This document shows positions 1,199-60,057 of a stretch of 64,000 bases of DNA, piece by piece. A model generated the notes under the pieces. It ran no database searches. It was given only the letters and a program-made list of their open reading frames with translations, and was not told the origin of the DNA. The DNA is taken from assembly GCA_002011475.1 (NCBI GenBank), contig MTNP01000008.1, positions 4,037 to 68,036 on the forward strand, in the 5' to 3' direction. Made by a program: the position numbers and the translations under genes. Source of the DNA: Dehalococcoides sp. JdFR-54 (lineage in GTDB: Bacteria > Chloroflexota > Dehalococcoidia > JdFR-54). Each line of letters begins with the position of its first letter. Within the stretch, counting starts at the first letter, position 1.

Positions 1199-1668
1199 TT
1201 GCTTTAGCTATTTAACTGTTTCTTAATTTTCTCTGGATTTCATCTTCAGGTCACTCGCCTCCCAGGCCCGTTCGCAAGCGTGCCAAACCAAAAATAGAAA
1301 TAGTAGCTGCTGGCCTGGTCAAGCATATCGACCTTCACGATGATATGATAACACTAGCCACACGAAGATGTCAATAAGACCGAAGACAACTACGCTACAG
1401 AAATCTGCTGCACTGCTCTTGACCGGGGAAACCCAATGAGCTACCCTATTAACCGCCTGCCCGCTGGCCGGTTTTGAGGGCCCGCGACAGTGCCTCTGCC
1501 CGTTATCAATCAGGAAGGCCTGCCAAGAACGGGCATCTCCTGATCAACCTACCGGCGGTGTAGAAGAGCTTATAGGGAAAGGCGACTGAGAGGGGTGGAC
1601 AATATTCTACCTTTACCACCGCGAATCTCGGGGTCCCTATAGAGTTAGCTAGCAATCGGAGCTGCGAC

Positions 1669-2469
1669 ATGGATCTCGCCGAACAAATCAAGACCCGCGC
1701 TCGGGAGCTTTGGCCGGTGGAGGTAGGTATCTGTTCCGCTCTAGCCCTGCCTCTCAACAAGGCTTCGCTGGACAGGATGTTGCCCGGGTGTCGTTCTGTT
1801 GTTTGCATAATGTTTCCCCATGCGGAGACCGCGCTGGCCTCTGCCGACCTTTACGTAAAACAATATGACACCATCTTCTGCTACAATGGGGTGGCTCGCA
1901 TCAGCCACCAGTTAGCCCGCTATCTGGAAATGCAGGGTTATCAGGCGGTAGCAGTCCCAGCCTTCATCCCTTTGGACATGAGTGATGCCACCATGGGGAT
2001 GGTAGGAGCTGTCAATTGGAAACAGGCCGCTGTTGAGAGCGGCTTGGCGAGTTGGGGAAAGAATGGGCTGGCGGTGAGCCCTCTCTTTGGGCCGCGCACC
2101 CGCCTGGGTGGGCTCATCACCACCGCTGAGCTCAAGCTCGACGAAAAGCTGGATTTCTCCCCCTGTATCAACTGTAATTTATGTGTCGAGTCGTGTCCGG
2201 CAGGGGCATTGCTGGGCGATGGCTGGGTAGACAAGAAACTTTGCGCTGACCATGTCTTGTCGTACGGGCTGCGTGCTTTAACGCGGCTTCTCATGGATGT
2301 AGCTACGACTAAAGATGAAGCAAGTGCCAAAAAAGCGATCTACAGTTACCGCACCCGCGAGCTCTGGCAGGCGCTTGAGACGGGAAACTATTATTACTGC
2401 TGGACATGTCAAAGCGTTTGCCCGGTGGGCAAAGGCCACCCTCCTGCAGATGCGGATTCACAGGGTTGA
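1669..2469 (+). CDS. QueG-like (epoxyqueuosine reductase family, DUF1730 + 2x[4Fe-4S]) iron-sulfur protein, truncated (266 aa, no C-terminal HEAT domain).
   Basis: SGLASWGKNGL...SPLFGPRTRLGGLITTAEL segment followed by CINCNLCVESCPAGAL and CWTCQSVCPVG ferredoxin motifs, resembling the QueG core. Confidence 0.55.
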   Translation: MDLAEQIKTRARELWPVEVGICSALALPLNKASLDRMLPGCRSVVCIMFPHAETALASADLYVKQYDTIFCYNGVARISHQLARYLEMQGYQAVAVPAFIPLDMSDATMGMVGAVNWKQAAVESGLASWGKNGLAVSPLFGPRTRLGGLITTAELKLDEKLDFSPCINCNLCVESCPAGALLGDGWVDKKLCADHVLSYGLRALTRLLMDVATTKDEASAKKAIYSYRTRELWQALETGNYYYCWTCQSVCPVGKGHPPADADSQG

Positions 2470-2884: not shown

Positions 2885-4051
2885 GTGAGACAGAAATGTT
2901 TACTCCTCGTGTTATCCCTGGTACTGGTAGGCAGCTTGCTGGCAGTAGCTTGCGTCAGAGAGACCACCGTAACCAAGACCCAAGTCGAAACCCGAACCGT
3001 AACCGAAGCAGCGGCCGAGATCACGGTAACCGAGACGGTGACTGCGGCCCCGGTCACAGTAACTGAAACTGTAAAAGAGACGGTCACTGTCACTGCCACA
3101 GCCCCCCCACAGCCCGTCATTATGAGGGTGACCTCTGATGCGCCGGCAGCCCCCCACCCCAAAGGCGCCGCTATGGATTGGTTCAAGGCAGAGCTGGAGA
3201 AGCGGATCCCGGGGAGTGAGGTGAGGCTCTACCCCGCCGGTTCTCTGTATACCGACCCCGATGCCGTCGAGGCCCTGGCCCTGGGCACCCTGGAGGCATG
3301 CTGGGGGCAGGCGGGCAAGATCTCAGGGTTTGAGCCTAAGGCCTCCATTTTCGCACTGCCGTTTCTCCTCACCAGCAAGGAAGCCGTGTTAGCCCTGCCC
3401 GATAGCGAGCTGGGGAGGTATATCAGCGACCTCATGGAGACCAAGGGCATCAAGACCCTGGGTTACGGATACGTGAGCACCTACCTGGGTATGTGCAGCA
3501 CCTATCGTATCACCACGCCAGATGACCTGAAGGGCAAGAAGTTCAGGGTCTTCGTGAAGTTGACCCAGGAGCCGATGATGGAGGCCCTGGGGTGCTCACC
3601 CACCACCCTGGCCTGGGCCGAGGTGCCCAGCGCCCTGGGCTCCGGGGTGGTCGATGGTGTTTGCACCTCTACCGGTGGCTGGCGCAAGATCAAGGACTTG
3701 GCACCATACTACACCACCCTGGGCTATGGCGGCTTCGGCACAGACCTCTATCCCTTCTGGGTCAGCACCAAGTGGTGGAATACCTTGACCCCCGAGACCC
3801 AGGCTGTCATCGCTCAGACTGCCTACGAGGCCTGCCTCTACGAACAGGAGCTGCAGGACAAGGACGACCAAAGGATGCTGGATGAGTATGGCACCACGGA
3901 TCCCACCAAGCCGGGGATCTACGTCCTCAGCAAAGAGGAGGCCGAGGCCTTCAGGGCCCTCTGGGTGCCAGCGGTGTATGACAAACTTGCAGCGGTCGTG
4001 GGCAAGGACCTGGTTGCCATGGCCGTAGCCTTTGCCGAGCAGTTTAAGTAA
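2885..4051 (+). CDS. dctP: TRAP transporter substrate-binding lipoprotein (DctP family) with signal peptide, lipobox Cys and a Thr/Val-rich (TVTETVT) linker.
   Basis: N-terminal hydrophobic signal ending in ...LAVAC and repetitive TVT linker (DNA ~2965-3110). The mature part has a DctP-family fold. Followed by dctQ and dctM. Confidence 0.8.
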   Translation: MRQKCLLLVLSLVLVGSLLAVACVRETTVTKTQVETRTVTEAAAEITVTETVTAAPVTVTETVKETVTVTATAPPQPVIMRVTSDAPAAPHPKGAAMDWFKAELEKRIPGSEVRLYPAGSLYTDPDAVEALALGTLEACWGQAGKISGFEPKASIFALPFLLTSKEAVLALPDSELGRYISDLMETKGIKTLGYGYVSTYLGMCSTYRITTPDDLKGKKFRVFVKLTQEPMMEALGCSPTTLAWAEVPSALGSGVVDGVCTSTGGWRKIKDLAPYYTTLGYGGFGTDLYPFWVSTKWWNTLTPETQAVIAQTAYEACLYEQELQDKDDQRMLDEYGTTDPTKPGIYVLSKEEAEAFRALWVPAVYDKLAAVVGKDLVAMAVAFAEQFK

Positions 4052-4059
4052 ATATCCAA

Positions 4060-4098
4060 AATGTGAGGCTGATGGGTTAACCCCATCAGCCTCACATT
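4060..4098 (+). promoter_or_regulatory. Perfect 17-bp-stem hairpin (AATGTGAGGCTGATGGG ttaac CCCATCAGCCTCACATT) between dctP and dctQ. No U-tract, so likely an intra-operon attenuator/mRNA stabiliser.
   Basis: Read directly: 17/17 pairing with a 5-nt loop, located 9 nt after the dctP stop. Confidence 0.5.
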
Positions 4099-4164
4099 AC
4101 ATCCCCCCGATCTGGTGGAGACTATGCGTGATGTTTTTGCATGAATAGTCTCAGAAGGTAATGT

Positions 4165-4716
4165 ATGTTTATCAGGGTGCTTAAGAGGATAGGCCAGGCG
4201 GCGAATTTCGTAGAGGATCGTCTCATAAGATACCTAGCTGCCTTTGGCATGCTGGCTGTTGTCCTGGTAGCCCTGGTGGAGGTTTTCAGGAGGTATATCT
4301 TCGCCCGTTCCTTCCTCTGGCACTCGGATTTCGTGATCTACTTCATGTTGATGTCCTTCTTCCTCTACCTCGGCTTGGCCTTGAAAGAGGGCGCCCATCT
4401 CAGGGTTACCGTTTTTATACTGCTTTTTCGCAGGTTCTTTGGCGTCACAGCCGAAAGGGTGCTGGAAACCATCGTCAGCTTTGTAGGATTCGTCTACTGC
4501 CTATCTTTTACCTGGTTTGGCGCCAATCTATCCATGAAGACCTACGAAATAGGGAGGGTGACGGAGGGTGCCTACTATCCCTTCTGGGTGATTTTTTCGG
4601 TTCTCACCGCGGGCTTTTTCTTGCTGGGTATCCGCTACGCAGAGCAGTTCTACCTTCACATCAAGGGTCAGGTGAGCAAGGTTTCACCTGGAGGTGAGGA
4701 GCCCAAAGAGTGCTAG
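4165..4716 (+). CDS. dctQ: TRAP transporter small permease (DctQ family).
   Basis: 183 aa with 4 predicted TM segments; position between dctP and dctM; overlaps the dctM start. Confidence 0.8.
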   Translation: MFIRVLKRIGQAANFVEDRLIRYLAAFGMLAVVLVALVEVFRRYIFARSFLWHSDFVIYFMLMSFFLYLGLALKEGAHLRVTVFILLFRRFFGVTAERVLETIVSFVGFVYCLSFTWFGANLSMKTYEIGRVTEGAYYPFWVIFSVLTAGFFLLGIRYAEQFYLHIKGQVSKVSPGGEEPKEC

Positions 4717-6002
4717 CCCTGGTCTTGACCTTCCTCTTCTTCCTAATTATGGGCACTCATCTGGGAATCGCCCTGGCCCTGGGTGGTGTCGCTTGTGTGT
4801 ACCTCGTCACCGGTTATAGCTTCGATTTTGTGATCCAGTCCTTTCTATTCTTCCTGCATAAATACCCCCTTATGGCCGTCCCTTTCTTTATCCTCGCTGG
4901 CTTCCTGATGGAGAGGACCGGGCTCATCCGGCAGATCTTTGACTTCGCCGAGAGTCTTCTCAAGTTCCTGCCCGGAGGGCTGGGGGCGGCTGCTATGGCC
5001 ACCTGCATGGTCTTTGCCGCCATCACCGGCTCCAGTGTGGCCATGGCCTCCGCCATGGCGGTAATCGCCATCCCCGTCATGAGGCAGCGCGGCTATGATG
5101 AAGCCCTTGCCTCGGGGATAGTCTGCTCCGGGGGAACCCTGGGGCTTTTGATCCCTCCCAGCATAACCCTCATCGTCTACGGGGTCATAACCGAGACCTC
5201 CATTGTCCACTTATTCATGGCGGGGATGGTCCCCGGGGTAGTCTTGGGCAGCCTGTTCATCGGGGTGATCATTATTATCGCCATCAGGAGGGGGTTTCGC
5301 CCGGAGCCTACCGAGCTCAAACGCATAGGCACGACCTTCGTCCGAGCTATAGGGGGGCTTCTCTTCCCGGTCCTGGTGTTGGGCGGCCTCTACGGCGGGG
5401 TGTTCACCCCCACCGAGGCCGGGGCCGCCGCCTGTGGGTATGCCCTCCTCTATGGGCTCATCACGGGCAGGCTCAACTTCGCCAAGAAACTGCCCGAAAT
5501 TCTCACCTCTTCGTTGCAGTTAACAACCGTGGTGTTCCTCCTCGTGGGCGGGGCTGGGATCTTCGTTAAGGTCGCCGCCATCGAGTACATACCTCAGCAC
5601 TTCGCTGAGTTCATAATCGGACTGGGTCTTACGCCGCTTACCTTTGTATTTGCCTACATGGTGGTCCTGTTGATCCTGGGCTGCTTTCTCGATGCCATGG
5701 GGATGATCGTCCTTACCGTGCCCATCATTTTCCCGGTGGCCATGACCCTGGGCATCAACCCCCTTCACTTGGGTGTCCTCATCACCATCAATTCCGAGCT
5801 GGGCTGCATCACCCCTCCCGTAGGCCTTAACCTCTACGCGGTGAGCGGCCTCTCCAAGATACCAATAGCCACGGTTCTTCGCGGCTCTCTCCCCTTCTTC
5901 CTGGTGGGATTCGCCTTTTTGATCTTTATGGTCTTTACTCCCACCCTGGCCCTGTGGTTCCCTCACCTCATACATCCCCCCATCGTGTGGGGCGGTGGCT
6001 AG
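4710..6002 (+). CDS. dctM: TRAP transporter large permease (DctM family).
   Basis: 430 aa polytopic membrane protein with DctM-like conserved segments (GIVCSGGTLGLLIPPSI, NLYAVSG). Confidence 0.88.
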   Translation: MLALVLTFLFFLIMGTHLGIALALGGVACVYLVTGYSFDFVIQSFLFFLHKYPLMAVPFFILAGFLMERTGLIRQIFDFAESLLKFLPGGLGAAAMATCMVFAAITGSSVAMASAMAVIAIPVMRQRGYDEALASGIVCSGGTLGLLIPPSITLIVYGVITETSIVHLFMAGMVPGVVLGSLFIGVIIIIAIRRGFRPEPTELKRIGTTFVRAIGGLLFPVLVLGGLYGGVFTPTEAGAAACGYALLYGLITGRLNFAKKLPEILTSSLQLTTVVFLLVGGAGIFVKVAAIEYIPQHFAEFIIGLGLTPLTFVFAYMVVLLILGCFLDAMGMIVLTVPIIFPVAMTLGINPLHLGVLITINSELGCITPPVGLNLYAVSGLSKIPIATVLRGSLPFFLVGFAFLIFMVFTPTLALWFPHLIHPPIVWGGG

Positions 6003-6090
6003 TCTCCGCCCAGCTTGACTGGCTAACCGGGCTGCGGTAAAATGCGCCTCGTAGGCGATTGTTGCCCGATCTAGTTTGAGAGGGGGTAAT

Positions 6091-8537
6091 ATGGTCGAAG
6101 TATTAGTTCCCACAGAGATCGGCCCCGACTATGCGCCGCCAGCCAGCCCCAGGGTGGAGAGGCTGCGAGATAGCTTAGTTGCTATCAGAAGGTACGATAC
6201 CTGTAGCGAGCGGGCTTTACTGGTAACCGAGTCATATAAGGAGACGGAGGGACAGCCCTATATCATCAGGAGGGCTAAGGCCTTCGATAAGCTGCTCCGG
6301 AATATGACCATCTTCATCCTCGATGATGAGCTCATCGTCGGCCACAGGGCCAGCATGCGCAAGGGAGTGCCCTTCTGTCCAGAAATAGATGTGGACTGGA
6401 TAGAGAAGGAGCTGAACAACCGAGAGAGAGACTCCCTGAGCGGGAGCTGTCCGACCTGTATCGAATTTCTGACAGGGTTAAGGAGGACCTGAGAAAGGTC
6501 GTCATCCCCTACTGGAAGGGAAAGACGGTAAGAGACGCCCGCGATGAGCTGCTCGCCAAGGAGATCAGGCTCGCCAAGGAGAACGGCTTGTGGTTGGAAG
6601 GGGTGGATATGGGGGGCCAGGGGCGTATGATCCTGTATCCGCACCGGGTGCTGGAGGTGGGGCTCAAGGGAATCAAGGCTGAGACCCAGAAGAGGCTTGA
6701 CGAGGTGAACATCGCCCACGACCCCGAAGCCTACCGCAAGACCCTCTTCTGGAGAGCAGTGATTATGTACAGCGACGCTGCCATTGCCTTCGCCCATAGG
6801 TACGCCGAGAAGGCCAGGGAACTGGCCAAAAGGGAGTCAGATGTTCAGAGGAAGGCCGATCTGGAGAGGATAGCAGAGGTTTGCCAGTGGGTGCCCGAAA
6901 ATCCGGCCCGAACCTTCCACGAGGCCCTGCAAACCGCATGGTTCGCCTTCCTCCTCGCCGGACTCGATGACGATGCCGACGCCTTTGGCCTGGGCCGGGT
7001 GGACCAGTTCCTGTATCCCTATTATAAGAGGGACCTGGAGGAAGGGCGGCTCACCCAGGAAGAGGCCCAGGAGCTCTTGGATCTCTTCTGGATAAAGTTC
7101 AACGAGGCCCACAAGGCCCGGCCGGAAAGCCTGCCCCCGGGCAAGGACTCCCACGGTAAGATCGGCAAGGCGGGGGATCCCCTCTTCAACCATATGACCA
7201 TCGGCGGCATTACCGCAGATAGACAGGATGCCACCAATGACCTCACCTATATGATCCTCGCCGCCCGCGAGCATATCTTCCCCCTCCCCTATCCCAACCT
7301 TTCCCTCCGGGTTCACCCCCAAACCCCTAAGAGGTTGCTGATGAGAGCCCTTCAGGTCACCGCCAAGTGCGGGGGGTTACCTCAGTATTGCGGGGACAGC
7401 GGCATCATCAAGTCGCTCCTCAGCCGGGGGATATCTCTGGAGGATGCTCGCGACTACACCGCCCATGGCTGCTCCATCTTCAGCGCCCCGGGCCTTTACG
7501 GTAGATGGCATGTCACCTTCCCCAATATCACCAAGCCCCTGGAACTGGCCTTAAACAACGGGGTTGACCGACTCACTGGGGCCCGGATCGGGCTCCCCAC
7601 CGGCGACCCCACCACCTTCAGCTTCGAAGACCTGTTCCATGCCTTCACCAAGCAACTGGACTACATGCTGGAGCTGTCCTCTCAGGAGGTGGCTGTCACT
7701 CAAAAGGTCATGGAGGAGAAATTCCCCCTAGTGTTCACCTCCATCTTCGTGCCCGATTGTCTAGAGAAGGGCAGGGACATAACGGCGGGCGGTGCCCGCT
7801 ATGAGTGGGGCAACGCCATGGCGGGGATGGGAGCCATCACCGCCGGAGACTCCCTGGCGGCTATTAAGAAGCTGGTCTTCGACGAAAAGAGGGTCACCAT
7901 GTCTGAGCTGCTGGAGGCCCTGGACGCCGACTTCCAGGGCAAAGAGGAGCTGCACCAGCTTCTCCTCAACGCTCCCAAATACGGCAACGACGATGATTAC
8001 GCAGACTCCATAGTGAAAAGGGTGTGTGATACCTTTTGTCGGGAGGCCCAGAAATACCCCACCCCCAAGGGGAAGATGGAGCCGGAGTTCCATTCGGTAA
8101 CCCTGTCCGTGGCCTTGGGGTTCCACACCGCCGCTTCCCCGGACGGCAGGAGGGCCTGCAAACCCCTGAACCACGATATGTCGCCCACCGCCGGATGCGA
8201 CCGCAGCGGCCCCTCTGCAATGCTGAAATCGGCCAGCAAGATCGACCAGAGCGCCACCGTTACTAGCTCCTTGCTTATGACTGCCGACCCCAGCATAGTC
8301 TCCCGGGAACGGGATCTGGAGAAGTTCGCCAGTCTGCTGTGGACTTACTTCAATGTCCTAGACGGCACCAATGTGCAGCTCAATTTCCTATCCACGGAAA
8401 CCTTACGAGATGCCCAGCTTCACCCCGAGAAGTACCCCAACCTAGTGGTGCGGGTAGCTGGATTCAACGCCTTGTTTGTGGAGCTAAGCAAGCCTGTTCA
8501 GGATTACATTATCGAAAGGACCTGCCATAGCGTCTAG
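6091..8537 (+). pseudogene. Glycyl-radical enzyme (PFL2 / glycerol-dehydratase / CutC / BSS family) with its reading frame broken near 6425-6440. The N-terminal ~115 aa lie in one frame (6091..6492) and the remainder in another (6405..8537).
   Basis: N-terminal part (CSERALLVTESYKETEGQP...DELIVG) and the long ORF (…ARDYTAHGC…, C-terminal glycyl-radical motif VRVAGFNALFVEL) together align co-linearly with glycerol dehydratase-type GREs. The frame switch lies within/after a GAGAGAGAG tract. Confidence 0.8.
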
Positions 8538-8558
8538 TCTAAACTGAGAACAGCCATT

Positions 8559-8600
8559 GGCCTGGTCAGGAGGCTGGCGCCCTGACCAGGCCAGCATTTT
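8559..8600 (+). terminator. 12-bp perfect stem-loop (GGCCTGGTCAGG ...10 nt... CCTGACCAGGCC) followed by AGCATTTT. Putative partial terminator between the GRE and its activase.
   Basis: Read directly from the sequence. Confidence 0.45.
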
Positions 8601-8627
8601 GAGACATCATCGGGCTATTAAGGCAAG

Positions 8628-9542
8628 ATGAGCAGGGCTGAAAAGGGCCTTATCTCCGAGATTCAGAGGTATAGTATTCATGATGGACCCGGGATAAGAA
8701 CGGTGGTCTTCGTCAAAGGCTGCCCTTTGCGCTGCCAATGGTGTCATAACCCGGAATCACAACGCCCCGTCCCAGAGCTCCTCTACTACCCGACCAAGTG
8801 CTCGAACTTCAGGAAATGCCTCGAGATCTGCCCTCTCGGTGCCCTAACCGAGGCCGGGGGCAAGATACAAATTGACCGCTCCCTGTGCAACAACTGTGGA
8901 GACTGCAGTCAGGCTTGCCCCACCGGCGCTCTGAAGATCGTGGGGGAATGGATGGGTCTCGACCCCTTGCTGGCCAAGATAAAGAAAGACCTGCCCTTTT
9001 ATCAAACTTCCGGGGGTGGGGTGACCATATCAGGGGGTGAGCCGGCATCCCAGCCCGAGTTCGTCGCCCAGCTTTTGAGAGAATGTCAGAGAAACGCTAT
9101 TCACACTGCCATTGAAACGTGTGGTTATGTAAAATGGGAGGTCCTTTCCCACATACTGAACTACACCAACCTGGTCCTCTATGACCTAAAAGTTATGGAC
9201 CCGGAAAAACACAAGGCGTTCACCGGGGTCTCCAACGAGCTGATTGTGCACAATGCACAGCGGTTGGCCCAGCAGAGGATTCCGACCATAATCCGGGTCC
9301 CCGTTGTCCCCGGATATACCGCCTCTAATGAGAATCTGGAGGCCATAGCCCGGTTTGCCGCCACGCTGAACTCCGTAGAGGAGATCCACCTGTTGCCCTA
9401 CCACAGACTAGGCGAAGCCAAATACCAGAAGCTGGACAGAGAGTACAAGTTGGAGGGGATCGCCCCCCTGAGGGAAGAGGAGCTGGAAACCCTAGCTCAC
9501 CTGGTGGAATCCTACGGGTTTAGGGTGCAAATAGGTGGCTAG
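8628..9542 (+). CDS. Glycyl-radical enzyme activating enzyme (radical SAM, with ferredoxin-like 2x[4Fe-4S] insert).
   Basis: GIRTVVFVKGCPLRCQWCHNPES (CxxxCxxC radical-SAM motif) plus CLEICPLGAL and CNNCGDCSQACPTGAL clusters typical of PFL2-type GRE activases. Confidence 0.9.
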   Translation: MSRAEKGLISEIQRYSIHDGPGIRTVVFVKGCPLRCQWCHNPESQRPVPELLYYPTKCSNFRKCLEICPLGALTEAGGKIQIDRSLCNNCGDCSQACPTGALKIVGEWMGLDPLLAKIKKDLPFYQTSGGGVTISGGEPASQPEFVAQLLRECQRNAIHTAIETCGYVKWEVLSHILNYTNLVLYDLKVMDPEKHKAFTGVSNELIVHNAQRLAQQRIPTIIRVPVVPGYTASNENLEAIARFAATLNSVEEIHLLPYHRLGEAKYQKLDREYKLEGIAPLREEELETLAHLVESYGFRVQIGG

Positions 9543-9608
9543 GGGGCCCTATTCCATGAATTTAGAGCGTCCCGAGAAAGGACGAATCGAGAGGAAAAGG
9601 AGACAGCG

Positions 9609-10496
9609 ATGGTACAGCAGCCAGATTTGCTTGTCCAAGAGACGCCCGCCCAGCGCCTAGAGCAGGCTATTGTGGAGTTTGTCCGCTCCAGCCCGGAGAA
9701 CTGCCTCGCCAAAATAGATGGTAGCCCCATCTTTGAGGAACCGTTGGTGGCCTTTGCCGATGGCCACGATCCTCTCTTCCTCCAATACAAGACCATAATC
9801 GGCGACTTCCACCTCACCCCTCGGGAGGTTATGGAGCACCACTTCGGCCCAGAGGCTGCCCAGGTGGGCATCAGCGTCGTCTCCTGGGTGCTGCCCATCG
9901 CCAGGAAGACCCGAATGTCCAATCGCAGAATGAGCCACCGCCCCAGCCAGCGCTGGTCCCATACCCGCTGGTATGGCGAGCATTTCAACGACCAGCTTCG
10001 TCAACATGTGGTGGCTCTGCTGACGAATTGGGGCTATCGGGCGGTAGCTCCAGCCCTGAGCAGCCTCTTCCACATAGTGGAGCACTTCGGCGCCAGGATC
10101 TCTAACTGGTCGGAGAGGCACGTCGCCTATGCAGCCGGTCTGGGCACCTTCAGCCTGAATGACGGCTTTATTACCCCTAAGGGAATTGCCATGAGGTGCG
10201 GCAGCGTGGTCACAGATCTCAGCCTCCCTGCCAGCCCTAGAAACTACTCCTCCCACACTGCCAACTGCCGATTCTATAGGGGCATCTCCTGCCAGGTTTG
10301 TGCTGAGCGTTGCCCCGCCGGTGCTATCACCGCCCAGGGCCATGATAAGACACTATGCAATAGATATATGCGCGAAACCCTCCGCCACCTCCGGGGAGAA
10401 TACGGTGTGGACATCGTCGGGTGCGGTCTGTGCCAGACCAAAGTCCCTTGCGAATCTCGAATCCCGTCTGCTCGAGGGAGCCAGGCCAGCGCCTGA
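9609..10496 (+). CDS. QueG-like (epoxyqueuosine-reductase family) Fe-S protein, truncated paralogue (295 aa).
   Basis: AAGLGTFSLNDGFITPKGIAMRCGSVVTDLSLP core and CQVCAERCPAGAI ferredoxin motif resemble QueG (AAGLGWIGKN...GS.VFLGELLT...CGSCTRCIDACPTGAL). Paralogous to the ORF at 1669. Confidence 0.6.
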   Translation: MVQQPDLLVQETPAQRLEQAIVEFVRSSPENCLAKIDGSPIFEEPLVAFADGHDPLFLQYKTIIGDFHLTPREVMEHHFGPEAAQVGISVVSWVLPIARKTRMSNRRMSHRPSQRWSHTRWYGEHFNDQLRQHVVALLTNWGYRAVAPALSSLFHIVEHFGARISNWSERHVAYAAGLGTFSLNDGFITPKGIAMRCGSVVTDLSLPASPRNYSSHTANCRFYRGISCQVCAERCPAGAITAQGHDKTLCNRYMRETLRHLRGEYGVDIVGCGLCQTKVPCESRIPSARGSQASA

Positions 10497-10503
10497 TGTT
10501 GCC

Positions 10504-11724
10504 TTAGATAACGCCGGCCGCTCTAAGGGCAGCTATCTTCTCCTCACTATAGCCCAGGAGGTGCCGAAAAACCTCGTCGTTGTGCTCACCCAGTCTGGGC
10601 GCGGTGCTCCGCACCCTGCCGGGCGTGAGGGAAAATTTGCCGATGACGTTGGGCATTTTCACCGGGCCGATGTCCGGGTCCTGAACCTCGATGATGTTCT
10701 CCCGCTCCCAGAATAGAGGGTCCTGGAAGATATCGGCCATATTTTGTACCGGCCCCGCCGGGACCCCAGCGTCATCCAGGATATCCACCACCTCTTTCAA
10801 GGTATGCTCCTTGGTCCACTCCTCAACGATGCGGTTGATCTCCTCCCTATTCTCCGCCCGAGCGCTCTGGCTCACGAATCGGGGGTCGGTGGCCAGTTCC
10901 GGCCTGCCCATGGCCTGGCTCAGGCGCCTGAAAACGGGGTCAGTGCTACAGGTGATGGATACCCAGTGGTCGTCCCTGGATTTCCAGATGCCCAGGGGGG
11001 CAGTGCCAGGGAAATCGTTGCCCGTCCTTTCCTGGAGGATGCCCATCTTGTCCCACAGGGCCGGCTGATATTCCTGAAGCCGAAACAGGCCCTCGTAGAC
11101 CGCCAGGTCGATATACTGCCCCTGCCCCCCACCGATGGTATCCCTATAGTAAAGGGCGAACATGATGGACAGGGCGCCGAATATCCCGGTGATGTAGTCG
11201 GCCAGGGATATGGGCGGGTTTAGGGGCGGGCGATCGGGATACCCGGTAATATAGGTCAACCCACTACGTGCCTGACAGGTCATGCCAAAGCCGGCCTTGT
11301 GTCGGTCCGGGCCGGTCTGCCCATATCCAGAGATGCTAAGCATAATGATGCCGGGGTTCACCTCCTTCAGGTCCTCATAGGCAAGGTTCCACTCCGCCAC
11401 CGTGCCCGGGCGGAAGTTCTCGACCACCACATCAGAGATCTTCGCCAGGTCCTTGATCACCCCCTGCCCCTCACGCCTGCGCATATCAACGGTGATGCTT
11501 TTCTTATTGCGGCCGTTCACCGTCCACCACAGGGATTGCCCCTGGTATTTGGGACTCATCCCTCTCAGGCCATCGCCGACCCCCGGCTGCTCCACTTTGA
11601 TAACCTGGGCCCCGAAATCGCCGAGCAGAGAGCAAGCGAAAGGCGCCGCCAAGACATGGCCTATCTCCAGAACCCTTACCTTGGACAAAGGAAGCTCAGT
11701 GGAATTCCTCTCAACCTGCGCCAT
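10504..11724 (-). CDS. Family III (CaiB/BaiF) CoA-transferase.
   Basis: VRVLEIGHVLAAPFACSLLGDFGAQVIKVEQPG N-terminal signature and length ~405 aa. Start chosen at the second ATG (11724), preceded by GGAGGAGGG. Confidence 0.85.
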   Translation of the reverse strand: MAQVERNSTELPLSKVRVLEIGHVLAAPFACSLLGDFGAQVIKVEQPGVGDGLRGMSPKYQGQSLWWTVNGRNKKSITVDMRRREGQGVIKDLAKISDVVVENFRPGTVAEWNLAYEDLKEVNPGIIMLSISGYGQTGPDRHKAGFGMTCQARSGLTYITGYPDRPPLNPPISLADYITGIFGALSIMFALYYRDTIGGGQGQYIDLAVYEGLFRLQEYQPALWDKMGILQERTGNDFPGTAPLGIWKSRDDHWVSITCSTDPVFRRLSQAMGRPELATDPRFVSQSARAENREEINRIVEEWTKEHTLKEVVDILDDAGVPAGPVQNMADIFQDPLFWERENIIEVQDPDIGPVKMPNVIGKFSLTPGRVRSTAPRLGEHNDEVFRHLLGYSEEKIAALRAAGVI

Positions 11725-11975
11725 AGGACATCCCTCCTCCGCCGACTTGGAATGGCTTGTCATCGGCTTTCGGTCTGGGCAAAAGTATAGAGGCTCACCG
11801 CCCCTGCGTCAAGTTTGTGCGTCGTCCTCCTCTATATTGTTGACAATCTTGCCTTCAATGGCTATACTCTTCATTGGCGTGCGTCCTATCCCCTGAATGC
11901 CGTTGGCGAGAAGGAAACCCTGACTGCGCCTTCAAAGGCGGAAAGTTTGTTGCACATCATAGGGAAGGAGGGGAA

Positions 11976-12899
11976 ATGAACAGGTCGAAATCGATCACCA
12001 TCATAGAGGTGGGGCCCCGGGATGGATTCCAGAACCTGGCCGATGAGATTCCCACTGCCGACAAGATCAGGATTGTGGACCTCCTAGCTGATACTGGTCT
12101 GAAGATGATCGAGACTTCATCCTTTGTTCATCCCAAATGGATACCCCAACTGAAGGATGCCGCCGAGGTATTTGCCGGCATCCATAAGAAGCCCGGCGTC
12201 TCCTATAGCGCCTTGATCCCCAATGAGAAGGGCCTGGACAGGGCCATCGAGTGTGGGGTGGGCGAGGTGGTGTTCGTGGTCGCTGCCAGCAATAGCCTGA
12301 ACCGCGCCAATCAGAACATGACCACGGAGGAATCATTGGCCTACCTGGAACCTATTGCCCAAAAGTCGAGACGACACGGCATTCGGGTGCGCGGCATTAT
12401 CGCTGCCTCCTTCGGCTGCTCCTACGAAGGAGAGGTTCCCATCAAGCAGGTCATCGACATCGGAAAGGAGCTGCGGCGGATGGGTGCCTTCGAGATCTCC
12501 CTGGCGGATTCCTTCGGGATGGCCCACCCTCGCCAGGTTAGGCAGGTGGTATCCCGGTTTCTGAGGGAAATAAACGATGTGAGCGTGGGCGTCCATTTCC
12601 ACGATACCAAGGGCACAGGCACGGCCAACGCTTACGCCGCCTTTGAGGCTGGGGTCAATGTCTTCGAGTCCTCCATCGCCGGCCTGGGGGGCTGTCCCTA
12701 TGCCTTAGGCGCCCCCGGAAATGTGGCCACAGAGAGCCTGGTTTACATGTTCCATAAGATGGGCATAGACTCCGGCATAGACCTAGACAAATTGTTGGCC
12801 TGTGCCGAAACGGTTAAGGAGATCGTGGGCTGGCCCCCCAAGACCTGGTCCTCCGAGAGAACCCGCTGGAACTGGAAGGAAGCCTCGGTGCCGGCGTAA
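11976..12899 (+). CDS. HMG-CoA-lyase-like (HMGL family) acyl-CoA lyase; could be a citramalyl-CoA-type lyase.
   Basis: ITIIEVGPRDGFQN (DRE-TIM metallolyase motif), HFHDTKGTG, GLGGCPYA. ATG at 11976 preceded by GGAAGGAGGGG. Confidence 0.8.
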   Translation: MNRSKSITIIEVGPRDGFQNLADEIPTADKIRIVDLLADTGLKMIETSSFVHPKWIPQLKDAAEVFAGIHKKPGVSYSALIPNEKGLDRAIECGVGEVVFVVAASNSLNRANQNMTTEESLAYLEPIAQKSRRHGIRVRGIIAASFGCSYEGEVPIKQVIDIGKELRRMGAFEISLADSFGMAHPRQVRQVVSRFLREINDVSVGVHFHDTKGTGTANAYAAFEAGVNVFESSIAGLGGCPYALGAPGNVATESLVYMFHKMGIDSGIDLDKLLACAETVKEIVGWPPKTWSSERTRWNWKEASVPA

Positions 12900-12931
12900 C
12901 ATCCCCTGCCAGTTTATGGAAAGGATAGGCC

Positions 12932-13816
12932 ATGCGAGCCCAAGTGACCCTCACCCCCACTGAGTCGAAGAAACTGATTGCCAAGGCGGTGGCGAGGATG
13001 GACATAGTGAAGCGGGCCTTGGCACAGGGAACAGTAGTTCTGCACCCCAGCAGTAGCACCTACTTCATCGTAGAAGAGATCACCAGGGATAAGCCCAAGA
13101 CCAATACCTGGGTCTGCGGCATCGTAGCCCCCAAGGGTACCTGCGTAGAGATGGGCTCTGCCATAGGCAGTCATTCCATAGTCTCAAAAGTGACCCAGGA
13201 GAGTGCCACTACCAATCCCAAGGCTTTCCGGCATTCCTGGGTCATTAGAGGCGGCGAAATGACCACGGGTATACCCCTCGGCTCCCTCCTGGAGGATTTA
13301 GGCCCTGAGGATGTCTATATAAAGGGCGTGAATGCCCTAGATACAGAGGGCAACGTCGGCGTCCTCATCGGCAATCCCATAGAGGGAGGCACTATCGGAC
13401 AGGTAATGGCTGCCTCCAGGGGAAAGGGATTTAACGTTATCTTCCCAGTGGGCCTGGAGAAGTTGATCCCCATTCCCGTCAAAGAGGCGGCTAAGGAGGC
13501 CCTGAGAACGAGCTATGAGTACGCCATGGGTATAGGCTGTGCCCTATTCCCCTGCCAAGGGATAACGGTGACCGAGCCCAAGGCCATCGAGATCCTCAGC
13601 GGCGCCACGGCCATCCCTATTTCGGCGGGCGGTTTAGGCGGGGCGGAGGGATCGGTAACGCTGGTCATTAGGGGGGATGAAGAGCAAGTTCGTAAGGCCA
13701 TTGATTATGCGGAGCAGTCCAAAGGGGCCAGATTACCCCAGGTGCGCACCTTTAATTGCCATCAGTGCGACGTCTCATTCTGTTACTTCCCGGTGGGCGA
13801 TAAGCCTTGGGCCTGA
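12932..13816 (+). CDS. Conserved hypothetical protein (294 aa) with a Cys-rich C-terminus (CHQCDVSFCYFP); no family recognised.
   Basis: Long ORF with consistent codon usage sitting inside the metabolic gene cluster; two internal Cys-containing loops (GTCVEMG, GIGCALFPCQG). Confidence 0.5.
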   Translation: MRAQVTLTPTESKKLIAKAVARMDIVKRALAQGTVVLHPSSSTYFIVEEITRDKPKTNTWVCGIVAPKGTCVEMGSAIGSHSIVSKVTQESATTNPKAFRHSWVIRGGEMTTGIPLGSLLEDLGPEDVYIKGVNALDTEGNVGVLIGNPIEGGTIGQVMAASRGKGFNVIFPVGLEKLIPIPVKEAAKEALRTSYEYAMGIGCALFPCQGITVTEPKAIEILSGATAIPISAGGLGGAEGSVTLVIRGDEEQVRKAIDYAEQSKGARLPQVRTFNCHQCDVSFCYFPVGDKPWA

Positions 13817-22315: not shown

Positions 22316-23990
22316 AGAAGCTATAATTCAGTGGCAGAGAGAGTATGAGGAATCCCTGCGTCGGCTGCCCCCACGACGGAAGCAGTTTGTCACCCAGTCG
22401 GGCATCCCGCTGAAGCCCCTCTATATCCCTGAGCCGACCTCGGCCGAGGCCGCCAATTACTTGGAGAAGCTGGGCTTGCCCGGCCAGTACCCCTTCACCA
22501 GGGGCGTCTACGCCTCGATGTATCGCAATCGGGTCTGGACCAAGAGGCTCCTCGCCGGCTACGGAGCCCCTGAGAACTTCAATGAGAGGGCCAAGCTCCT
22601 CCTGGAGGCCGGGGAGACGGGGCTCAACGCCCCGGCACCCAGCGTATCTATGCGAGGCTATGATACCGACCAGATGGCAGAGATGTACGATAAGGGCTAT
22701 GTCGGGCTATATGGCACGCCCCTAGATAGCGTGCTGGACACCGAGATAAGCCTGAAGGACATACCTATTGACCAGATCAGCGTCAACTACAGTGACCCCG
22801 GCCCCTTCGTCTCCATCGCCTTGCACTTCGCCGAGGCGCGACGGCGGGGCATCCCTTTGAACGATTTGAGGGGCAGCGCCAATCAGGCCGATTGCCTATC
22901 CCACTGGGTTAGCTCCCACCAGTTTATCATCTTCCCCCTGGAAGTGCATATGCGAATGACTGTGGACTTGATCACCTGGTGCACGCGCCATGCGCGCAAA
23001 TGGCACCCGTTGAGCATCATCGGCCAGCATCACTCCCAGAGCGGCGCCACCCCCCTCCAAGAGCTGGCCTTCACCTTGGCTGCGGGCATCGCCTACGTGG
23101 AGGAGTGTTTGAAGACCGGCATGAATATCGATGAGTTCGCTCCCCGCATCAGCGGTTTCTTCGATGGCCAGATAAACTTCCTGGAATTGGCCGCCAAGCT
23201 GCGGGCAGCTCGGCGCATGTGGGCCAAGACAATGAGGGAGAGATTCGGCGCCAAAGACCCTCGTTCCTGGCAACTGCCCATCCATGTGCAGACCTCGGGC
23301 GTAGAGCTCACCCGGCAGATGCCCCTGCTCAACATCGCCCGGGTAGCCCTTCAGGCGGTGGGGGCGGTGCTGGGCGGTACCCAGTCCCTTCATACCGATT
23401 CCTGGGATGAAGCCATTACCATACCCAAGCAGGAAGCGGCGCTAATAGCCCTGATGACCCAACACATCATAAGTGAGGAGTCAGGGGCGGCCGAGGTCAT
23501 CGACCCACTGGGTGGCTCCTACTACGTGGAGGCCCTGACCGATGAACTGGAAAAAAGGGCCTGGGAGATCATCGACACCATCGACTCCATGGGCGGGATG
23601 GTCAAGGCAGTTAGCTCGGGCTGGGTCTACAGGGAGATCACCCGGTCGATACGGGAGAGCCAGGCAGCCATAGATAAAAAGGAGAAAATCGTCGTTGGCG
23701 TGAACGAGTACACCCTGCCTGAGGAGGAGCAACAGCAGTTCGAGTCCTTCGAGGTCGACCCGGAGCTAGTAGACGGGCAAATTGAGCGCACCAAGCGACT
23801 GAGGCAGGAGCGCGACCAGGCCAAGGCCAAGAGTGCTCTCGAGGAACTTCGCGCCATCGCCGAAGACCCCGGAAAGGGCAACATCTTCGAAGGGGTCTTT
23901 AATGCAGTGCAGGCCTATTGCACCCGGGGCGAGATCGTCCACACGCTCAAGGAAGTGTTGGGCGAGGGAAGGCCTTACACCACTATCTGA
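22293..23990 (+). CDS. Methylmalonyl-CoA mutase family large (catalytic TIM-barrel) subunit, split type; substrate unknown.
   Basis: ~565 aa aligning with the MCM/IcmA substrate-binding domain (TRGVYASMYR...). Start at ATG 22293 preceded by GAGGAGGTG. Overlaps the small-subunit gene. Confidence 0.82.
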   Translation: MPEEASLEEAIIQWQREYEESLRRLPPRRKQFVTQSGIPLKPLYIPEPTSAEAANYLEKLGLPGQYPFTRGVYASMYRNRVWTKRLLAGYGAPENFNERAKLLLEAGETGLNAPAPSVSMRGYDTDQMAEMYDKGYVGLYGTPLDSVLDTEISLKDIPIDQISVNYSDPGPFVSIALHFAEARRRGIPLNDLRGSANQADCLSHWVSSHQFIIFPLEVHMRMTVDLITWCTRHARKWHPLSIIGQHHSQSGATPLQELAFTLAAGIAYVEECLKTGMNIDEFAPRISGFFDGQINFLELAAKLRAARRMWAKTMRERFGAKDPRSWQLPIHVQTSGVELTRQMPLLNIARVALQAVGAVLGGTQSLHTDSWDEAITIPKQEAALIALMTQHIISEESGAAEVIDPLGGSYYVEALTDELEKRAWEIIDTIDSMGGMVKAVSSGWVYREITRSIRESQAAIDKKEKIVVGVNEYTLPEEEQQQFESFEVDPELVDGQIERTKRLRQERDQAKAKSALEELRAIAEDPGKGNIFEGVFNAVQAYCTRGEIVHTLKEVLGEGRPYTTI

Positions 23991-32024: not shown

Positions 32025-32087
32025 GGGGACGACACCTAGAACGCCCTTCGTTGCACGTTTCGATGCGAAGTGGGATTGCCTGGGAAG

Positions 32088-32543
32088 ATGGGGCAGCCAC
32101 AGATCACCATTATAACCGGGGTGTTACGAGATATCCACCACCTTGGCATAAAGGTAGTGGGATATGCTCTCCAGGAAGCTGGCTTCCGACCGGTCTTTAT
32201 CGGGGCCAGATTGGAGCAGGAAGAGTTCATCCAGGCCGCTATCGAGACCGATGCCAAGGCCATCTTTATGTCCTCCTCCAACGGCCACGCCGAGCTTGAC
32301 GCCGTCGATATGCGGGAGAAGTGCACAGAAGTAGGCCTGGGTAATATCCTGCTCTACCTGGGCGGCAATCTGGTCATCGCCGCTCAGGAACAGGACTGGA
32401 CGAGCATTGAAGGCCGATTCAAGGAGATGGGTTACGACCGGGTATATCCACCCGGGGTGAGCCCGGCACAGGTGATCCAGGACTTGAAGGCAGACCTAGC
32501 CCAACGATATGGAATATCCGAAGTGGCTAGGGACGAGCGGTGA
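32088..32543 (+). CDS. Glutamate mutase S-like B12-binding subunit, divergent copy 1. A GTG at 32070 is the alternative start.
   Basis: ITIITGVLRDIHHLG (DxHxxG) and C-terminal GYDRVYPPGVSPAQVIQDLK closely parallel GlmS (…DCHAVGN…GFDRVYPPGTSP…). Confidence 0.75.
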   Translation: MGQPQITIITGVLRDIHHLGIKVVGYALQEAGFRPVFIGARLEQEEFIQAAIETDAKAIFMSSSNGHAELDAVDMREKCTEVGLGNILLYLGGNLVIAAQEQDWTSIEGRFKEMGYDRVYPPGVSPAQVIQDLKADLAQRYGISEVARDER

Positions 32544-34000
32544 AGCTAGAGAACAGGCGCTGGACAGATGAGGAATTCGGGCAAGCCTTCCGGGAGGTAA
32601 TGTCCCTCTATCCCACGGGGCGGGAGGTGGATCTGGATGAGGCGGTGGAATACCTCAGGGCGCTGCCCCCGGAAAAGAGCGTCCCAGCAGCCTTTGACAG
32701 GGCGAAGCGGGATGGGCTGCTCCTGCTGAACCCCAGGGGAGGGGTGGCCACCCTGGAGGCCATGACCCAGCTTCTGCTCTGCCTCCAGAATGAGGGCGGC
32801 GCCGATATCCTGCCCGTAGAGCCGGACAGCTATTCGAGGCGCAATATGTTCCAGGAGGCAGCGGCTGGCCTTGAGGAGAGCCAGAGGCAGGGACGCTCCA
32901 TGCTTAACGGCTTTCCCCTGCCCATCCATGGCGTGGCCACCTGCCGGCGCCTCACCGAGTCGGTGCAGAGGCCCCTGGTCTGTCGCTCAGCGGCGCCCCG
33001 GACCCAATTCGTGAACACCATCGCCTTCGTCAGTGGCATAACCGAGGCAATTGGCAGCGCCACCGGTCTCGCCCTGTGCATGGAGTATGGCCTCGACCTG
33101 GCCCAGGCCATCCAGGATCAGCAGTACACAGCTCGGCTGGTGGGGTGGTTTCAGGAGCGGGGGGTTGCCCTGGGTTTAGATGTCAACAACACTGTAGCCG
33201 CCGGAACCATCGCCGAGCCGAGCCTTTCCATAGCCTACGGGGTCATTGATAGCCTCATCGCCGCCGAACAGGGGGCTCGGTATCAGTCCATCTCCTACCA
33301 GCCCAATCACCACTTCGTCCAGGACCTAGCTGGAATGCGGGCTCAGATGAAGCTGGCCCAGCACTATTTCACCAAGTTCGGATACGACTGGTCTGGGCTG
33401 AGCCAGGCTGTCCACCAGTGGAACGGGCCCTTCCCCCGCGACCCCGCCCGCGCCTATGCCATCATCGTCCTGTCCACAGCCATCGCCTACCTGGGCAAGG
33501 CGAGGCGTATCATGGTGAAGAGCTGCGAGGAGGGATTAGGAGTGCCCACGCCCCAGGCCAACGCCGCCGGCGTGCGCGCTACCCGCCAGGTCGTGGATAT
33601 GCTGCGGGGCCAGGAATTCCCAGAAAGCCCCCAACTCCGAGAGGAGCAGGCGATAATCGAGACCGAGGGCAGGCTGCTCATAGACAAGGTGCTGGAGGTG
33701 GGGGACGGCGATATCGCCGTAGGAGCGGTGCGGGCCCACGAGGCCGGGCTCATCGAGTTCCCCTTCAGCATTAACAAGGCTAACAAGGGACAGATGCTCC
33801 TGGCCCGGGACGCCACCGGGGCCGTCCGATTCCTAGACCCCGGCCACCTCCCCTTCCCCAAGGAGATTCGACAGTTCCACCAGGAGAAACTGCGGGAGAG
33901 ACAGCGCTCCGAGGGCCTAGAACCGCTGGAGATGCTCGTTCGGGATCTGCGGGAGGTGCGGGCTCCGTTCCCTGAGGCCAAAACAAGACGGTTGGTGTAA
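32540..34000 (+). CDS. Glutamate mutase E-like catalytic subunit, copy 1 (methylaspartate-mutase E-chain family).
   Basis: 486 aa, co-linear with Clostridium GlmE (RRWTDEEF, WPTGREVDL, GRSMLNGFP, AEQGARY, AAGVRATRQ). GTG start overlaps the copy-1 S-subunit stop (GTGA). Confidence 0.85.
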   Translation: MKLENRRWTDEEFGQAFREVMSLYPTGREVDLDEAVEYLRALPPEKSVPAAFDRAKRDGLLLLNPRGGVATLEAMTQLLLCLQNEGGADILPVEPDSYSRRNMFQEAAAGLEESQRQGRSMLNGFPLPIHGVATCRRLTESVQRPLVCRSAAPRTQFVNTIAFVSGITEAIGSATGLALCMEYGLDLAQAIQDQQYTARLVGWFQERGVALGLDVNNTVAAGTIAEPSLSIAYGVIDSLIAAEQGARYQSISYQPNHHFVQDLAGMRAQMKLAQHYFTKFGYDWSGLSQAVHQWNGPFPRDPARAYAIIVLSTAIAYLGKARRIMVKSCEEGLGVPTPQANAAGVRATRQVVDMLRGQEFPESPQLREEQAIIETEGRLLIDKVLEVGDGDIAVGAVRAHEAGLIEFPFSINKANKGQMLLARDATGAVRFLDPGHLPFPKEIRQFHQEKLRERQRSEGLEPLEMLVRDLREVRAPFPEAKTRRLV

Positions 34001-34004
34001 CAAG

Positions 34005-34418: not shown

Positions 34419-34447
34419 CCCAGAGACCAAGAGGACAGGCAGAGCTT

Positions 34448-51429: not shown

Positions 51430-51513
51430 TTATAGACTGGAGGGGGTGATGCTATAAGGCAATGGACGGATAGGGACGAAGGCAATTAACAGCTTTTATG
51501 GAGAGGAGGGAAA

Positions 51514-52746: not shown

Positions 52747-52867
52747 AAGTCGATCGCCAAATCAGTAAAGGTTGCCTGAGAAATGAAGAGGGGTGCTCCT
52801 GTGGAGCCAGCCACAGGAGCACCCCTCTTTATTTTCCCGCAACCCTCGGCCTGGTAAGATGGGTCGC

Positions 52868-54193: not shown

Positions 54194-54232
54194 GTCCTCG
54201 CCTTTATTGTCTTGTGCATAGCCCCGGTAAAC

Positions 54233-57373: not shown

Positions 57374-57422
57374 TAGGGTGTCCCGATTCAATGCCATCTA
57401 AAAATAGCTGGGAGGTAGGGTC

Positions 57423-60015: not shown

Positions 60016-60057
60016 AGGCAGGGGGGAGACCCTGAGGGATCTTGTGGAGGGTAAAGC

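What the first reader, a model, noticed from the sequence alone, without database searches (positions are those of the whole stretch)
6400..6500. Frame break in the glycyl-radical enzyme gene at a (GA)n dinucleotide tract
The N-terminal ~115 codons (frame of 6091) and the rest of the GRE (frame opening at 6405) overlap. Homology to GRE N-termini switches frames within/just after the sequence CGAGAGAGAGAC (6421-6432): ...ELNNRER in one frame, RERLPERELSDLYRISDRVKEDLRKVVIPYWKGKT in the other. The offset equals a 1-nt loss or a 2-nt (one GA unit) gain, which fits slipped-strand mispairing. This could be a genuine pseudogene, a phase-variable or programmed event, or an assembly error.
Basis: seen in the sequence. 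Interest (0 to 1): 0.55.

Follow-up and report, generated by a model that had tools for sequence, protein, structure and literature searches.

The report
Frameshifted glycyl-radical enzyme gene at (GA)5
A glycyl-radical enzyme gene in a deep-subseafloor Dehalococcoidia genome is split in two by a single frameshift at a short GA repeat, which is most likely an ordinary, recent inactivating mutation rather than a programmed or novel mechanism.

Summary
An 814/815-codon PFL2/glycerol-dehydratase-family glycyl-radical enzyme (GRE) gene is broken once. Codons 1 to about 113 run in the frame of ATG 6091 and stop at 6490-6492; the rest runs one base back and ends at 8537. Removing one GA unit, or adding one base, restores a full-length GRE.

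By homology the switch can only be placed within 6415-6452. That interval holds (GA)5 (6422-6431), the only dinucleotide run of five or more units in the 64 kb.

Three separate assemblies of one read set are base-identical over 13,950 bp including the break: JGI, GenBank MAG GCA_011170395.1 and Logan SRR3723048 (Juan de Fuca crustal fluid). About 47 other ORFs match their Pfam profiles over essentially the whole profile or as normal separate subunits. Seventy-six homopolymer runs of at least 6 nt coincide with no other frame break. An assembler or generic indel error is therefore unlikely.

There is no slippery heptamer, no notable RNA structure and no relative sharing the frameshift, so recoding is unsupported. 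No close orthologue exists (best 47% identity) and reads were not available, so fixation versus polymorphism stays open.

Best reading: a recent slippage frameshift, hence a young pseudogene. This is ordinary and of low interest. Separately, the GRE lacks the near-universal Glu of the GCVE motif.

The parts
6091..6492 (+). N-terminal fragment ORF of the GRE (133 aa, GenBank HEX78149.1). Homologous to GRE N-termini up to about codon 113; after the tract it reads out of frame to TGA 6490-6492. GAGGGGG Shine-Dalgarno-like sequence upstream of the ATG.
6415..6452 (+). Interval in which the frame switch must lie. It falls between the last residue conserved in frame 1 (KEL, ending 6414) and the first conserved in frame 0 (D121 at 6453). 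It corresponds to a length-variable loop of the family that is 4 aa longer here.
6422..6431 (+). (GA)5 tract, the only dinucleotide run of 5 or more units in the window. Losing one unit restores the ORF.
6432..8537 (+). Remainder of the GRE coding sequence in the shifted frame (open from 6330). The called ORF starts at TTG 6588 (649 aa, HEX78150.1). It contains the catalytic Cys460 codon (7470-7472), Ile in place of the GCVE Glu (7476-7478) and the radical Gly790 codon (8460-8462).
6576..6590 (+). AAGGAG (6576-6581) six nt before TTG 6588, the only ATG/GTG/TTG in the shifted frame between 6330 and 6588. A possible but untested restart site for a truncated product.
8628..9542 (+). Intact GRE-activating radical-SAM enzyme (304 aa, TIGR02494 373 bits).
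2885..6002 (+). Intact TRAP transporter genes DctP (2885-4051), DctQ (4165-4716) and DctM (4710-6002), immediately upstream on the same strand.

Best explanation
This is a genuine frameshift mutation in the dominant genotype of the sampled Dehalococcoidia population. It most likely arose by replication slippage that added one GA unit to a (GA)4 tract: CGA GAG AGA CTC became CGAGAGAGAGACTC.

Translation from ATG 6091 now leaves the GRE frame after about 113 codons and ends 20 codons later at 6490-6492. The catalytic body, with Cys460 and the radical Gly790, is therefore not made as part of a full-length protein. The gene is a young pseudogene. The rest of the module (TRAP transporter, activase, CoA-transferase, HMGL-like lyase) is still intact.

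Shown here: the break, its position to within 38 nt, its co-location with the longest dinucleotide repeat, its reproducibility across assemblies, and the intactness of everything else.

Inferred: slippage as the mechanism, the (GA)4 ancestor, loss of function, and recency.
For: - There is a single lesion. The other 814 codons are open, and the repaired protein matches PFL-like end to end plus Gly_radical. Its third-position GC is 0.75, like the neighbouring genes. Decay has therefore not progressed, which points to a recent event.
- The break interval 6415-6452 contains the window's only dinucleotide run of 5 or more units. The frame offset equals one repeat unit gained.
- The JGI contig (153,631 bp), the GenBank MAG contig DUEO01000008.1 (104,258 bp) and the Logan SRR3723048 contig (48,687 bp) have different ends. 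They have 0 mismatches over 13,950 bp including the tract.
- About 47 other ORFs in the window match their Pfam profiles over essentially the whole profile, or are normal separate subunits. Seventy-six homopolymer runs of at least 6 nt coincide with no other frame break. The sequence is not indel-prone.
- The nearest homologue P0002 (47% identity) is one intact 806-aa ORF in a similar TRAP, activase, GRE, HMGL-like setting. One uninterrupted ORF is therefore the normal state.
Against: - All three assemblies derive from one read set (SRR3723048). They do not exclude an error carried in the reads or library, or a mixed population.
- No read pile-up, second sample or close orthologue could be examined.
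- Homology cannot place the indel on the tract itself. One extra C at 6434-6436 or one extra G at 6442-6444 would restore the frame equally well.
- Five GA units is a short tract with only modest slippage propensity.
Confidence: 0.6

Rival explanations
1. Technical artefact. The true genome has an in-frame tract, for example (GA)4. The extra GA arose during library amplification or sequencing of a low-biomass sample, or from consensus calling at low coverage, and every assembler then faithfully reproduced it.
For: All three assemblies come from the same run. Dinucleotide repeats are classic sites of polymerase stutter (general knowledge). No independent sample confirms the allele.
Against: Three different assemblies agree base for base over 13,950 bp. 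No other gene among about 47 is broken, and 76 homopolymer runs of at least 6 nt coincide with no other frame break. Stutter at only five units is normally a minority of reads and should not win a consensus on contigs of 49-154 kb (inference from general knowledge; coverage was not available).
Confidence: 0.2
2. Population polymorphism or phase variation. The GA tract varies in length among cells, switching the GRE on and off, and the assembly captured the off allele.
For: The repeat lies inside the coding sequence exactly where the frame breaks, and one unit changes the frame. Everything else in the module is intact, as expected for a reversible switch.
Against: The tract has only 5 units, and known dinucleotide contingency tracts are usually longer (own knowledge). 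The gene is a cytoplasmic catabolic enzyme, not a surface or restriction-modification gene. No second allele was found in any database. The contigs are long and unbroken through the site.
Confidence: 0.08
3. An N-terminally truncated or two-piece enzyme is still functional. The 649-aa ORF would be translated from TTG 6588, which has AAGGAG six nt upstream, alone or together with the 133-aa fragment.
For: There is an SD-like motif at the right spacing before the only start codon in that frame. The catalytic Cys and Gly lie in the 649-aa part.
Against: Such a product would lack about 165 N-terminal residues, including the invariant PYW(K)GKT segment and other invariant positions. All 119 full-length homologues are single chains. 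AAGGAG is simply the Lys-Glu codons of a conserved-frame sequence and may be coincidental.
Confidence: 0.03
4. Programmed recoding. A -1 ribosomal frameshift or transcriptional slippage at the GA tract produces full-length GRE from the sequence as it stands.
For: The needed shift is -1, and the two frames overlap by about 160 nt.
Against: There is no X_XXY_YYZ heptamer in any frame in 6330-6492. The fold of 6415-6540 is no better than shuffles (z = -0.99, 32 of 200 shuffles as good). No homologue carries a frameshift here. Transcriptional slippage is known for long homopolymer runs, not for (GA)5 (own knowledge).
Confidence: 0.02

Closest known systems
Frameshift pseudogenes created by slipped-strand mispairing at short simple-sequence repeats
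   Same: There is a single indel equal to one repeat unit (or one base), located at the longest local dinucleotide repeat. It truncates an otherwise intact gene whose neighbours remain intact.
   Different: The indel cannot be placed on the repeat itself, only within 38 nt of it. Fixation in the population is unverified.
Simple-sequence contingency loci (phase variation by coding-region dinucleotide repeats, e.g. CT repeats in Helicobacter pylori oipA; own knowledge)
   Same: A dinucleotide repeat near the 5' part of a coding sequence, where a change of one unit toggles the reading frame.
   Different: The tract has only five units. The gene encodes a cytoplasmic metabolic enzyme. No length variants were observed. 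The organism is an uncultured subsurface Dehalococcoidia with no known contingency loci.
Programmed -1 ribosomal frameshifting or transcriptional slippage (e.g. dnaX, IS element transposases)
   Same: Two overlapping frames would be joined by a -1 shift.
   Different: There is no slippery heptamer, no stimulatory structure and no conservation of the shift in relatives.
PFL2/glycerol-dehydratase family glycyl-radical enzymes (closest solved: diol dehydratase 5I2A, B12-independent glycerol dehydratase 1R8W, choline TMA-lyase)
   Same: The repaired protein aligns end to end (544-519 bits to the three closest solved structures). It has the catalytic Cys, the RVxG glycine and an adjacent activase.
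   Different: It scores below every NCBIfam equivalog cutoff and just below the subfamily cutoff (646.8 vs 678.2). It has Ile in place of the GCVE Glu (1 of 120 aligned sequences), RVAGFNA rather than RVAGYSA, and RTC rather than RTE. And it is interrupted.

Membership tests
Glycyl-radical enzyme, PFL2/glycerol-dehydratase family | Full-length PFL-like domain plus C-terminal Gly_radical domain | tested here: met
   Met only after in-silico repair: PF02901 profile positions 3-647 of 647 (683 bits) and PF01228 (83 bits); TIGR01774 646.8 bits against a cutoff of 678.2.
Glycyl-radical enzyme, PFL2/glycerol-dehydratase family | Radical glycine in the RVxG motif and catalytic Cys on the Cys loop | tested here: met
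   G790 is present (119 of 120 aligned sequences have G) and C460 is present (120 of 120).
Glycyl-radical enzyme, PFL2/glycerol-dehydratase family | Glu two residues after the catalytic Cys (GCVE), the general base of the eliminase-type members | tested here: not met
   Ile462 here; 116 of 120 aligned sequences have Glu.
Glycyl-radical enzyme, PFL2/glycerol-dehydratase family | Adjacent radical-SAM activase | tested here: met
   8628-9542, TIGR02494 373 bits against a cutoff of 174.
Glycyl-radical enzyme, PFL2/glycerol-dehydratase family | Encoded as one uninterrupted ORF of about 800 aa | tested here: not met
   Split into ORFs of 133 aa and 649 aa. All 119 full-length homologues are single ORFs.
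Programmed -1 ribosomal frameshift site | Slippery heptamer X_XXY_YYZ in the overlap | tested here: not met
   None in any frame in 6330-6492.
Programmed -1 ribosomal frameshift site | Downstream stimulatory RNA structure | tested here: not met
   6415-6540 folds at -38.8 kcal/mol, z = -0.99, with 32 of 200 shuffles as stable.
Programmed -1 ribosomal frameshift site | Frameshift conserved in relatives | tested here: not met
   No relative closer than 47% identity exists, and all relatives are single ORFs.
Simple-sequence contingency (phase-variable) locus | Repeat tract inside the coding sequence where a one-unit change switches the frame | tested here: met
   (GA)5 at 6422-6431 lies inside the 38-nt break interval, and removing one unit restores the ORF.
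Simple-sequence contingency (phase-variable) locus | Observed tract-length variation among reads, strains or samples | not testable with these tools
Only one allele is present in the databases.
Simple-sequence contingency (phase-variable) locus | Tract long enough to be hypermutable, well above the genome background | tested here: inconclusive
   It is the longest dinucleotide run in the window, but it has only 5 units. One 4-unit run and 85 3-unit runs exist elsewhere in the window. 17% of shuffled windows contain a (GA)5.
Pseudogene (recent) | Disrupted reading frame relative to intact homologues | tested here: met
Pseudogene (recent) | Lesion present in the real genome and fixed or dominant in the population | not testable with these tools
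   Supported only indirectly, by three identical assemblies of one read set.

The most novel reading that the evidence does not exclude
The (GA)n tract is a length-variable on/off switch (a contingency locus) for a divergent GRE-based organic-acid catabolic module in a slow-growing subseafloor Dehalococcoidia population, and the assembly captured the off state.
Probability: 0.05. Interest if true: 0.5.

Novelty: new member of a known kind. Interest (0 to 1): 0.15.

Why it matters
Practically, GenBank lists the two pieces (HEX78149.1 and HEX78150.1) as separate hypothetical proteins. Metabolic reconstructions of this Juan de Fuca crustal-fluid Dehalococcoidia should not count the GRE as functional without checking the reads.

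Biologically, a single fresh lesion in an otherwise intact TRAP, GRE, activase module would be a small example of ongoing gene loss in a subsurface lineage. That is ordinary.

The interrupted enzyme is more interesting than the interruption. It has no relative above 47% identity and lacks the Glu of the GCVE motif that 116 of 120 aligned family members keep.

Tried and rejected
1. Deciding between loss of GA and gain of one base using homologues. The break sits in a length-variable loop that is 4 aa longer here than in 108 of the 120 aligned sequences, so neither repair is favoured.

2. Finding an intact allele or orthologue, by five routes:
- A full-length protein search gave only the source itself, then 47% identity.
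- A junction-centred 168-aa search gave only the broken piece P0122.
- An exact DNA pattern with a variable tract length in metagenome contigs gave 0 hits. Not even the source contig is in that collection.
- The search for related loci in genome contigs gave a best match of 37% identity.
- The search for related loci in metagenome contigs gave a best match of 35% identity.

3. Recoding signals. There is no slippery heptamer and no notable RNA structure.

4. A 35-nt imperfect direct duplication as the source of the shift. GAGAAGGAGCTG at 6403 and GAGCGGGAGCTG at 6438 look alike by eye, but only 19 of 35 positions match. Removing one copy would make the loop about 8 aa shorter than the family norm. 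Rejected.

5. A generally error-prone assembly. No other split gene was found and no other frame break coincides with a homopolymer run. Rejected.

6. An excess of substitutions at conserved columns as evidence of long-term decay. The count is 17 of 137 here against 0-13 for the 29 homologues. This is inconclusive, because the query is the outgroup of a set chosen by similarity to it, and at least one of the 17 (R114L) is an alignment effect.

7. My early statement that the tract is the only run of 4 or more units was wrong. (AG)4 occurs at 22336-22343.

Full report
**What is there**

The window carries, on the + strand, three TRAP transporter genes: DctP 2885-4051, DctQ 4165-4716 and DctM 4710-6002. 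A glycyl-radical enzyme (GRE) gene follows, and then a GRE activase at 8628-9542.

The GRE gene is in two frames. From ATG 6091, which is preceded by GAGGGGG, the reading is MVEV…DVDWIEKELNNRERDSLSGSCPTCIEFLTGLRRT*, stopping at 6490-6492. The frame one base back is open from 6330 to 8537. It reads …PRERLPERELSDLYRISDRVKEDLRKVVIPYWKGKT… through to the C-terminal RVAG glycyl-radical motif.

In an alignment with 29 homologues, the conserved W103 (6397-6399) lies in the first frame. The conserved D121 (6453-6455) and the invariant PYW (from 6507) lie in the second. PYW lies beyond the first frame's stop.

Deleting one GA (6430-6431) gives an 814-aa protein; inserting one base gives 815 aa. The repaired protein matches Pfam PFL-like over profile positions 3-647 of 647 (683 bits), plus Gly_radical.

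**Where exactly is the lesion**

Homology fixes it only between 6415 and 6452. This interval corresponds to a surface-loop-like, length-variable stretch of the family. The distance from W103 to P139 is 32-33 residues in 108 of the 120 aligned sequences and 37 here.

The interval holds (GA)5 at 6422-6431. An extra C at 6434-6436 or an extra G at 6442-6444 would restore the frame equally well.

The case for the tract is circumstantial but fairly strong. It is the only dinucleotide run of 5 or more units in 64 kb. There is one 4-unit run, (AG)4 at 22336-22343, inside an intact gene, and 85 3-unit runs.

A (GA)5 somewhere in the window is unremarkable on its own (0.23 expected; 17 of 100 shuffles have one). 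Its falling inside the 38-nt interval of the only broken gene has a chance of roughly 8e-4. The offset also equals exactly one unit gained.

**Is it an artefact**

The sequence comes from a Dehalococcoidia MAG, GCA_011170395.1, contig DUEO01000008.1. There the two pieces are annotated as hypothetical proteins HEX78149.1 (133 aa) and HEX78150.1 (649 aa).

The same DNA occurs in a 153,631-bp JGI contig and in a 48,687-bp Logan contig of run SRR3723048. The retrieved copies, from the GenBank MAG contig and the Logan contig, match the window with 0 mismatches over 13,950 bp, tract included. The contig ends differ, so these are separate assemblies, but all of one read set.

That read set is a short paired-end JGI metagenome of basaltic crustal fluid from Juan de Fuca Ridge flank borehole U1362A (PMC5385130).

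About 47 other ORFs in the window match their Pfam profiles over essentially the whole profile, or are normal separate subunits. Seventy-six homopolymer runs of at least 6 nt coincide with no other frame break.

An assembler error or a generally indel-prone sequence is therefore unlikely. A library or read-level error confined to this site, or a mixed population, cannot be excluded without reads.

**Is it programmed**

No X_XXY_YYZ heptamer occurs in any frame between 6330 and 6492. The RNA from 6415 to 6540 folds no better than shuffles (z = -0.99). Every one of the 119 full-length homologues is a single ORF. Transcriptional slippage is known for long homopolymers, not for (GA)5 (own knowledge). 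Recoding is unsupported.

**Can orthologues settle it**

No. Apart from the source itself, the best protein match in 5.8 billion clusters is 47% identical. A search centred on the junction found only the broken N-terminal piece. An exact-flank DNA scan allowing any tract length found nothing in metagenome contigs. Degenerate-pattern scans of genome and metagenome collections gave at best 37% and 35% identity.

The nearest homologue, P0002, is an intact 806-aa ORF. It sits in a locus with DctPQM, two activases, a second GRE and an HMGL-like lyase. This resembles the arrangement here, so an uninterrupted gene in such a module is the normal state.

**Most likely mechanism**

The most likely mechanism is a replication-slippage gain of one GA unit, (GA)4 to (GA)5, in the dominant genotype. 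Translation then terminates 20 codons after the tract. The catalytic body, with Cys460 at 7470-7472 and Gly790 at 8460-8462, is no longer joined to its N-terminus.

There is only one lesion, no in-frame stop elsewhere in 814 codons, third-position GC of 0.75 like the neighbours, and an intact activase. The event is therefore recent. I put this at about 0.6.

The rivals are:
- a read or library artefact (0.2);
- tract-length polymorphism or phase variation (0.08);
- a functional truncated or two-piece enzyme using TTG 6588, which has AAGGAG six nt upstream (0.03);
- recoding (0.02).

**The enzyme itself**

The repaired protein belongs to the PFL2/glycerol-dehydratase branch. The closest solved structures are diol dehydratase 5I2A (544 bits), glycerol dehydratase 1R8W (532 bits) and choline TMA-lyase (519 bits). 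It reaches no NCBIfam equivalog cutoff and falls just short of the subfamily cutoff (646.8 vs 678.2).

It keeps the catalytic Cys and the radical Gly. It has Ile where 116 of 120 aligned family members have the Glu of GCVE. It is also the only one of the 120 with RVAGFNA or with RTC.

At columns conserved in at least 90% of sequences it departs 17 times out of 137, against 0-13 for the 29 homologues. This count is biased, because the query is the outgroup of the set. These features could mean a different chemistry or earlier loss of constraint, and I could not tell which.

**Verdict**

The feature is real and correctly described, and its kind is ordinary: a single frameshift at a short repeat that splits a gene. 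It is not a new mechanism. The one decisive test, a read pile-up over 6400-6460, could not be run here.

Noticed in passing
window 7470-7478 and 8451-8471, 8517-8525: The interrupted GRE has GCSI instead of GCVE (Ile462; 116 of 120 aligned family members have Glu). It is also the only one of the 120 with RVAGFNA (usually RVAGYSA) or RTC (usually RTE). It has no relative above 47% identity. This may reflect a different chemistry or earlier relaxation of constraint.
   Followed up: partly
L014 1-14185 (JGI Ga0326343_1000397) vs window 2885-12899: The nearest homologue (P0002, 47% identity) sits in a locus with GRE, DctP, DctQ, DctM, activase, GRE, activase, 2-hydroxyacid dehydrogenase and HMGL-like lyase. 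This suggests that the combination of TRAP transporter, GRE, activase and HMGL-like lyase is a recurring module for an unknown organic-acid substrate.
   Followed up: partly
window 11844-40387: A dense cluster of C4/C5-dicarboxylate and CoA-ester metabolism genes: HMGL-like lyase, two-subunit class I fumarase, two succinyl-CoA-synthetase-like pairs, HpcH/CitE-like lyase, methylmalonyl-CoA mutase, two acetyl-CoA hydrolase/transferases, a MaoC-type hydratase and a fumarate reductase/SDH flavoprotein with its Fe-S subunit. It also holds two tandem glutamate-mutase-like S/E pairs (32040-34000 and 33921-35881), PrpD/MmgE, the MutL reactivase-like protein and an acyl-CoA ligase.
   Followed up: no
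window 1576-2469 and 9609-10496: Two paralogous-looking Fe-S proteins flank the TRAP-GRE-activase block. They have weak Fer4_16 matches, and the one tested against NCBIfam (9609-10496) has weak reductive-dehalogenase/QueG similarity, far below the cutoffs. Their role is unknown.
   Followed up: no
window 12929-13816: A 295-aa ORF with coding-like GC3 and no Pfam or NCBIfam match, lying between the HMGL-like lyase and the fumarase genes.
   Followed up: no
window 51490-61272: A second TRAP transporter set (DctP on +, DctQ and DctM on -), followed by two HGD-D (2-hydroxyglutaryl-CoA dehydratase D-component) genes and two family III CoA-transferases. This is a further 2-hydroxyacyl-CoA dehydratase type module.
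   Followed up: no
window 6091-8537 (GenBank HEX78149.1 / HEX78150.1): The public record annotates the two GRE pieces as separate hypothetical proteins rather than as one frameshifted gene or pseudogene.
   Followed up: yes
window 6400-6460, metagenome-contig collection: The exact-pattern scan of the JGI metagenome collection did not return even the 153,631-bp JGI source contig. That collection apparently lacks the source record, so a zero there says less than it seems to.
   Followed up: no
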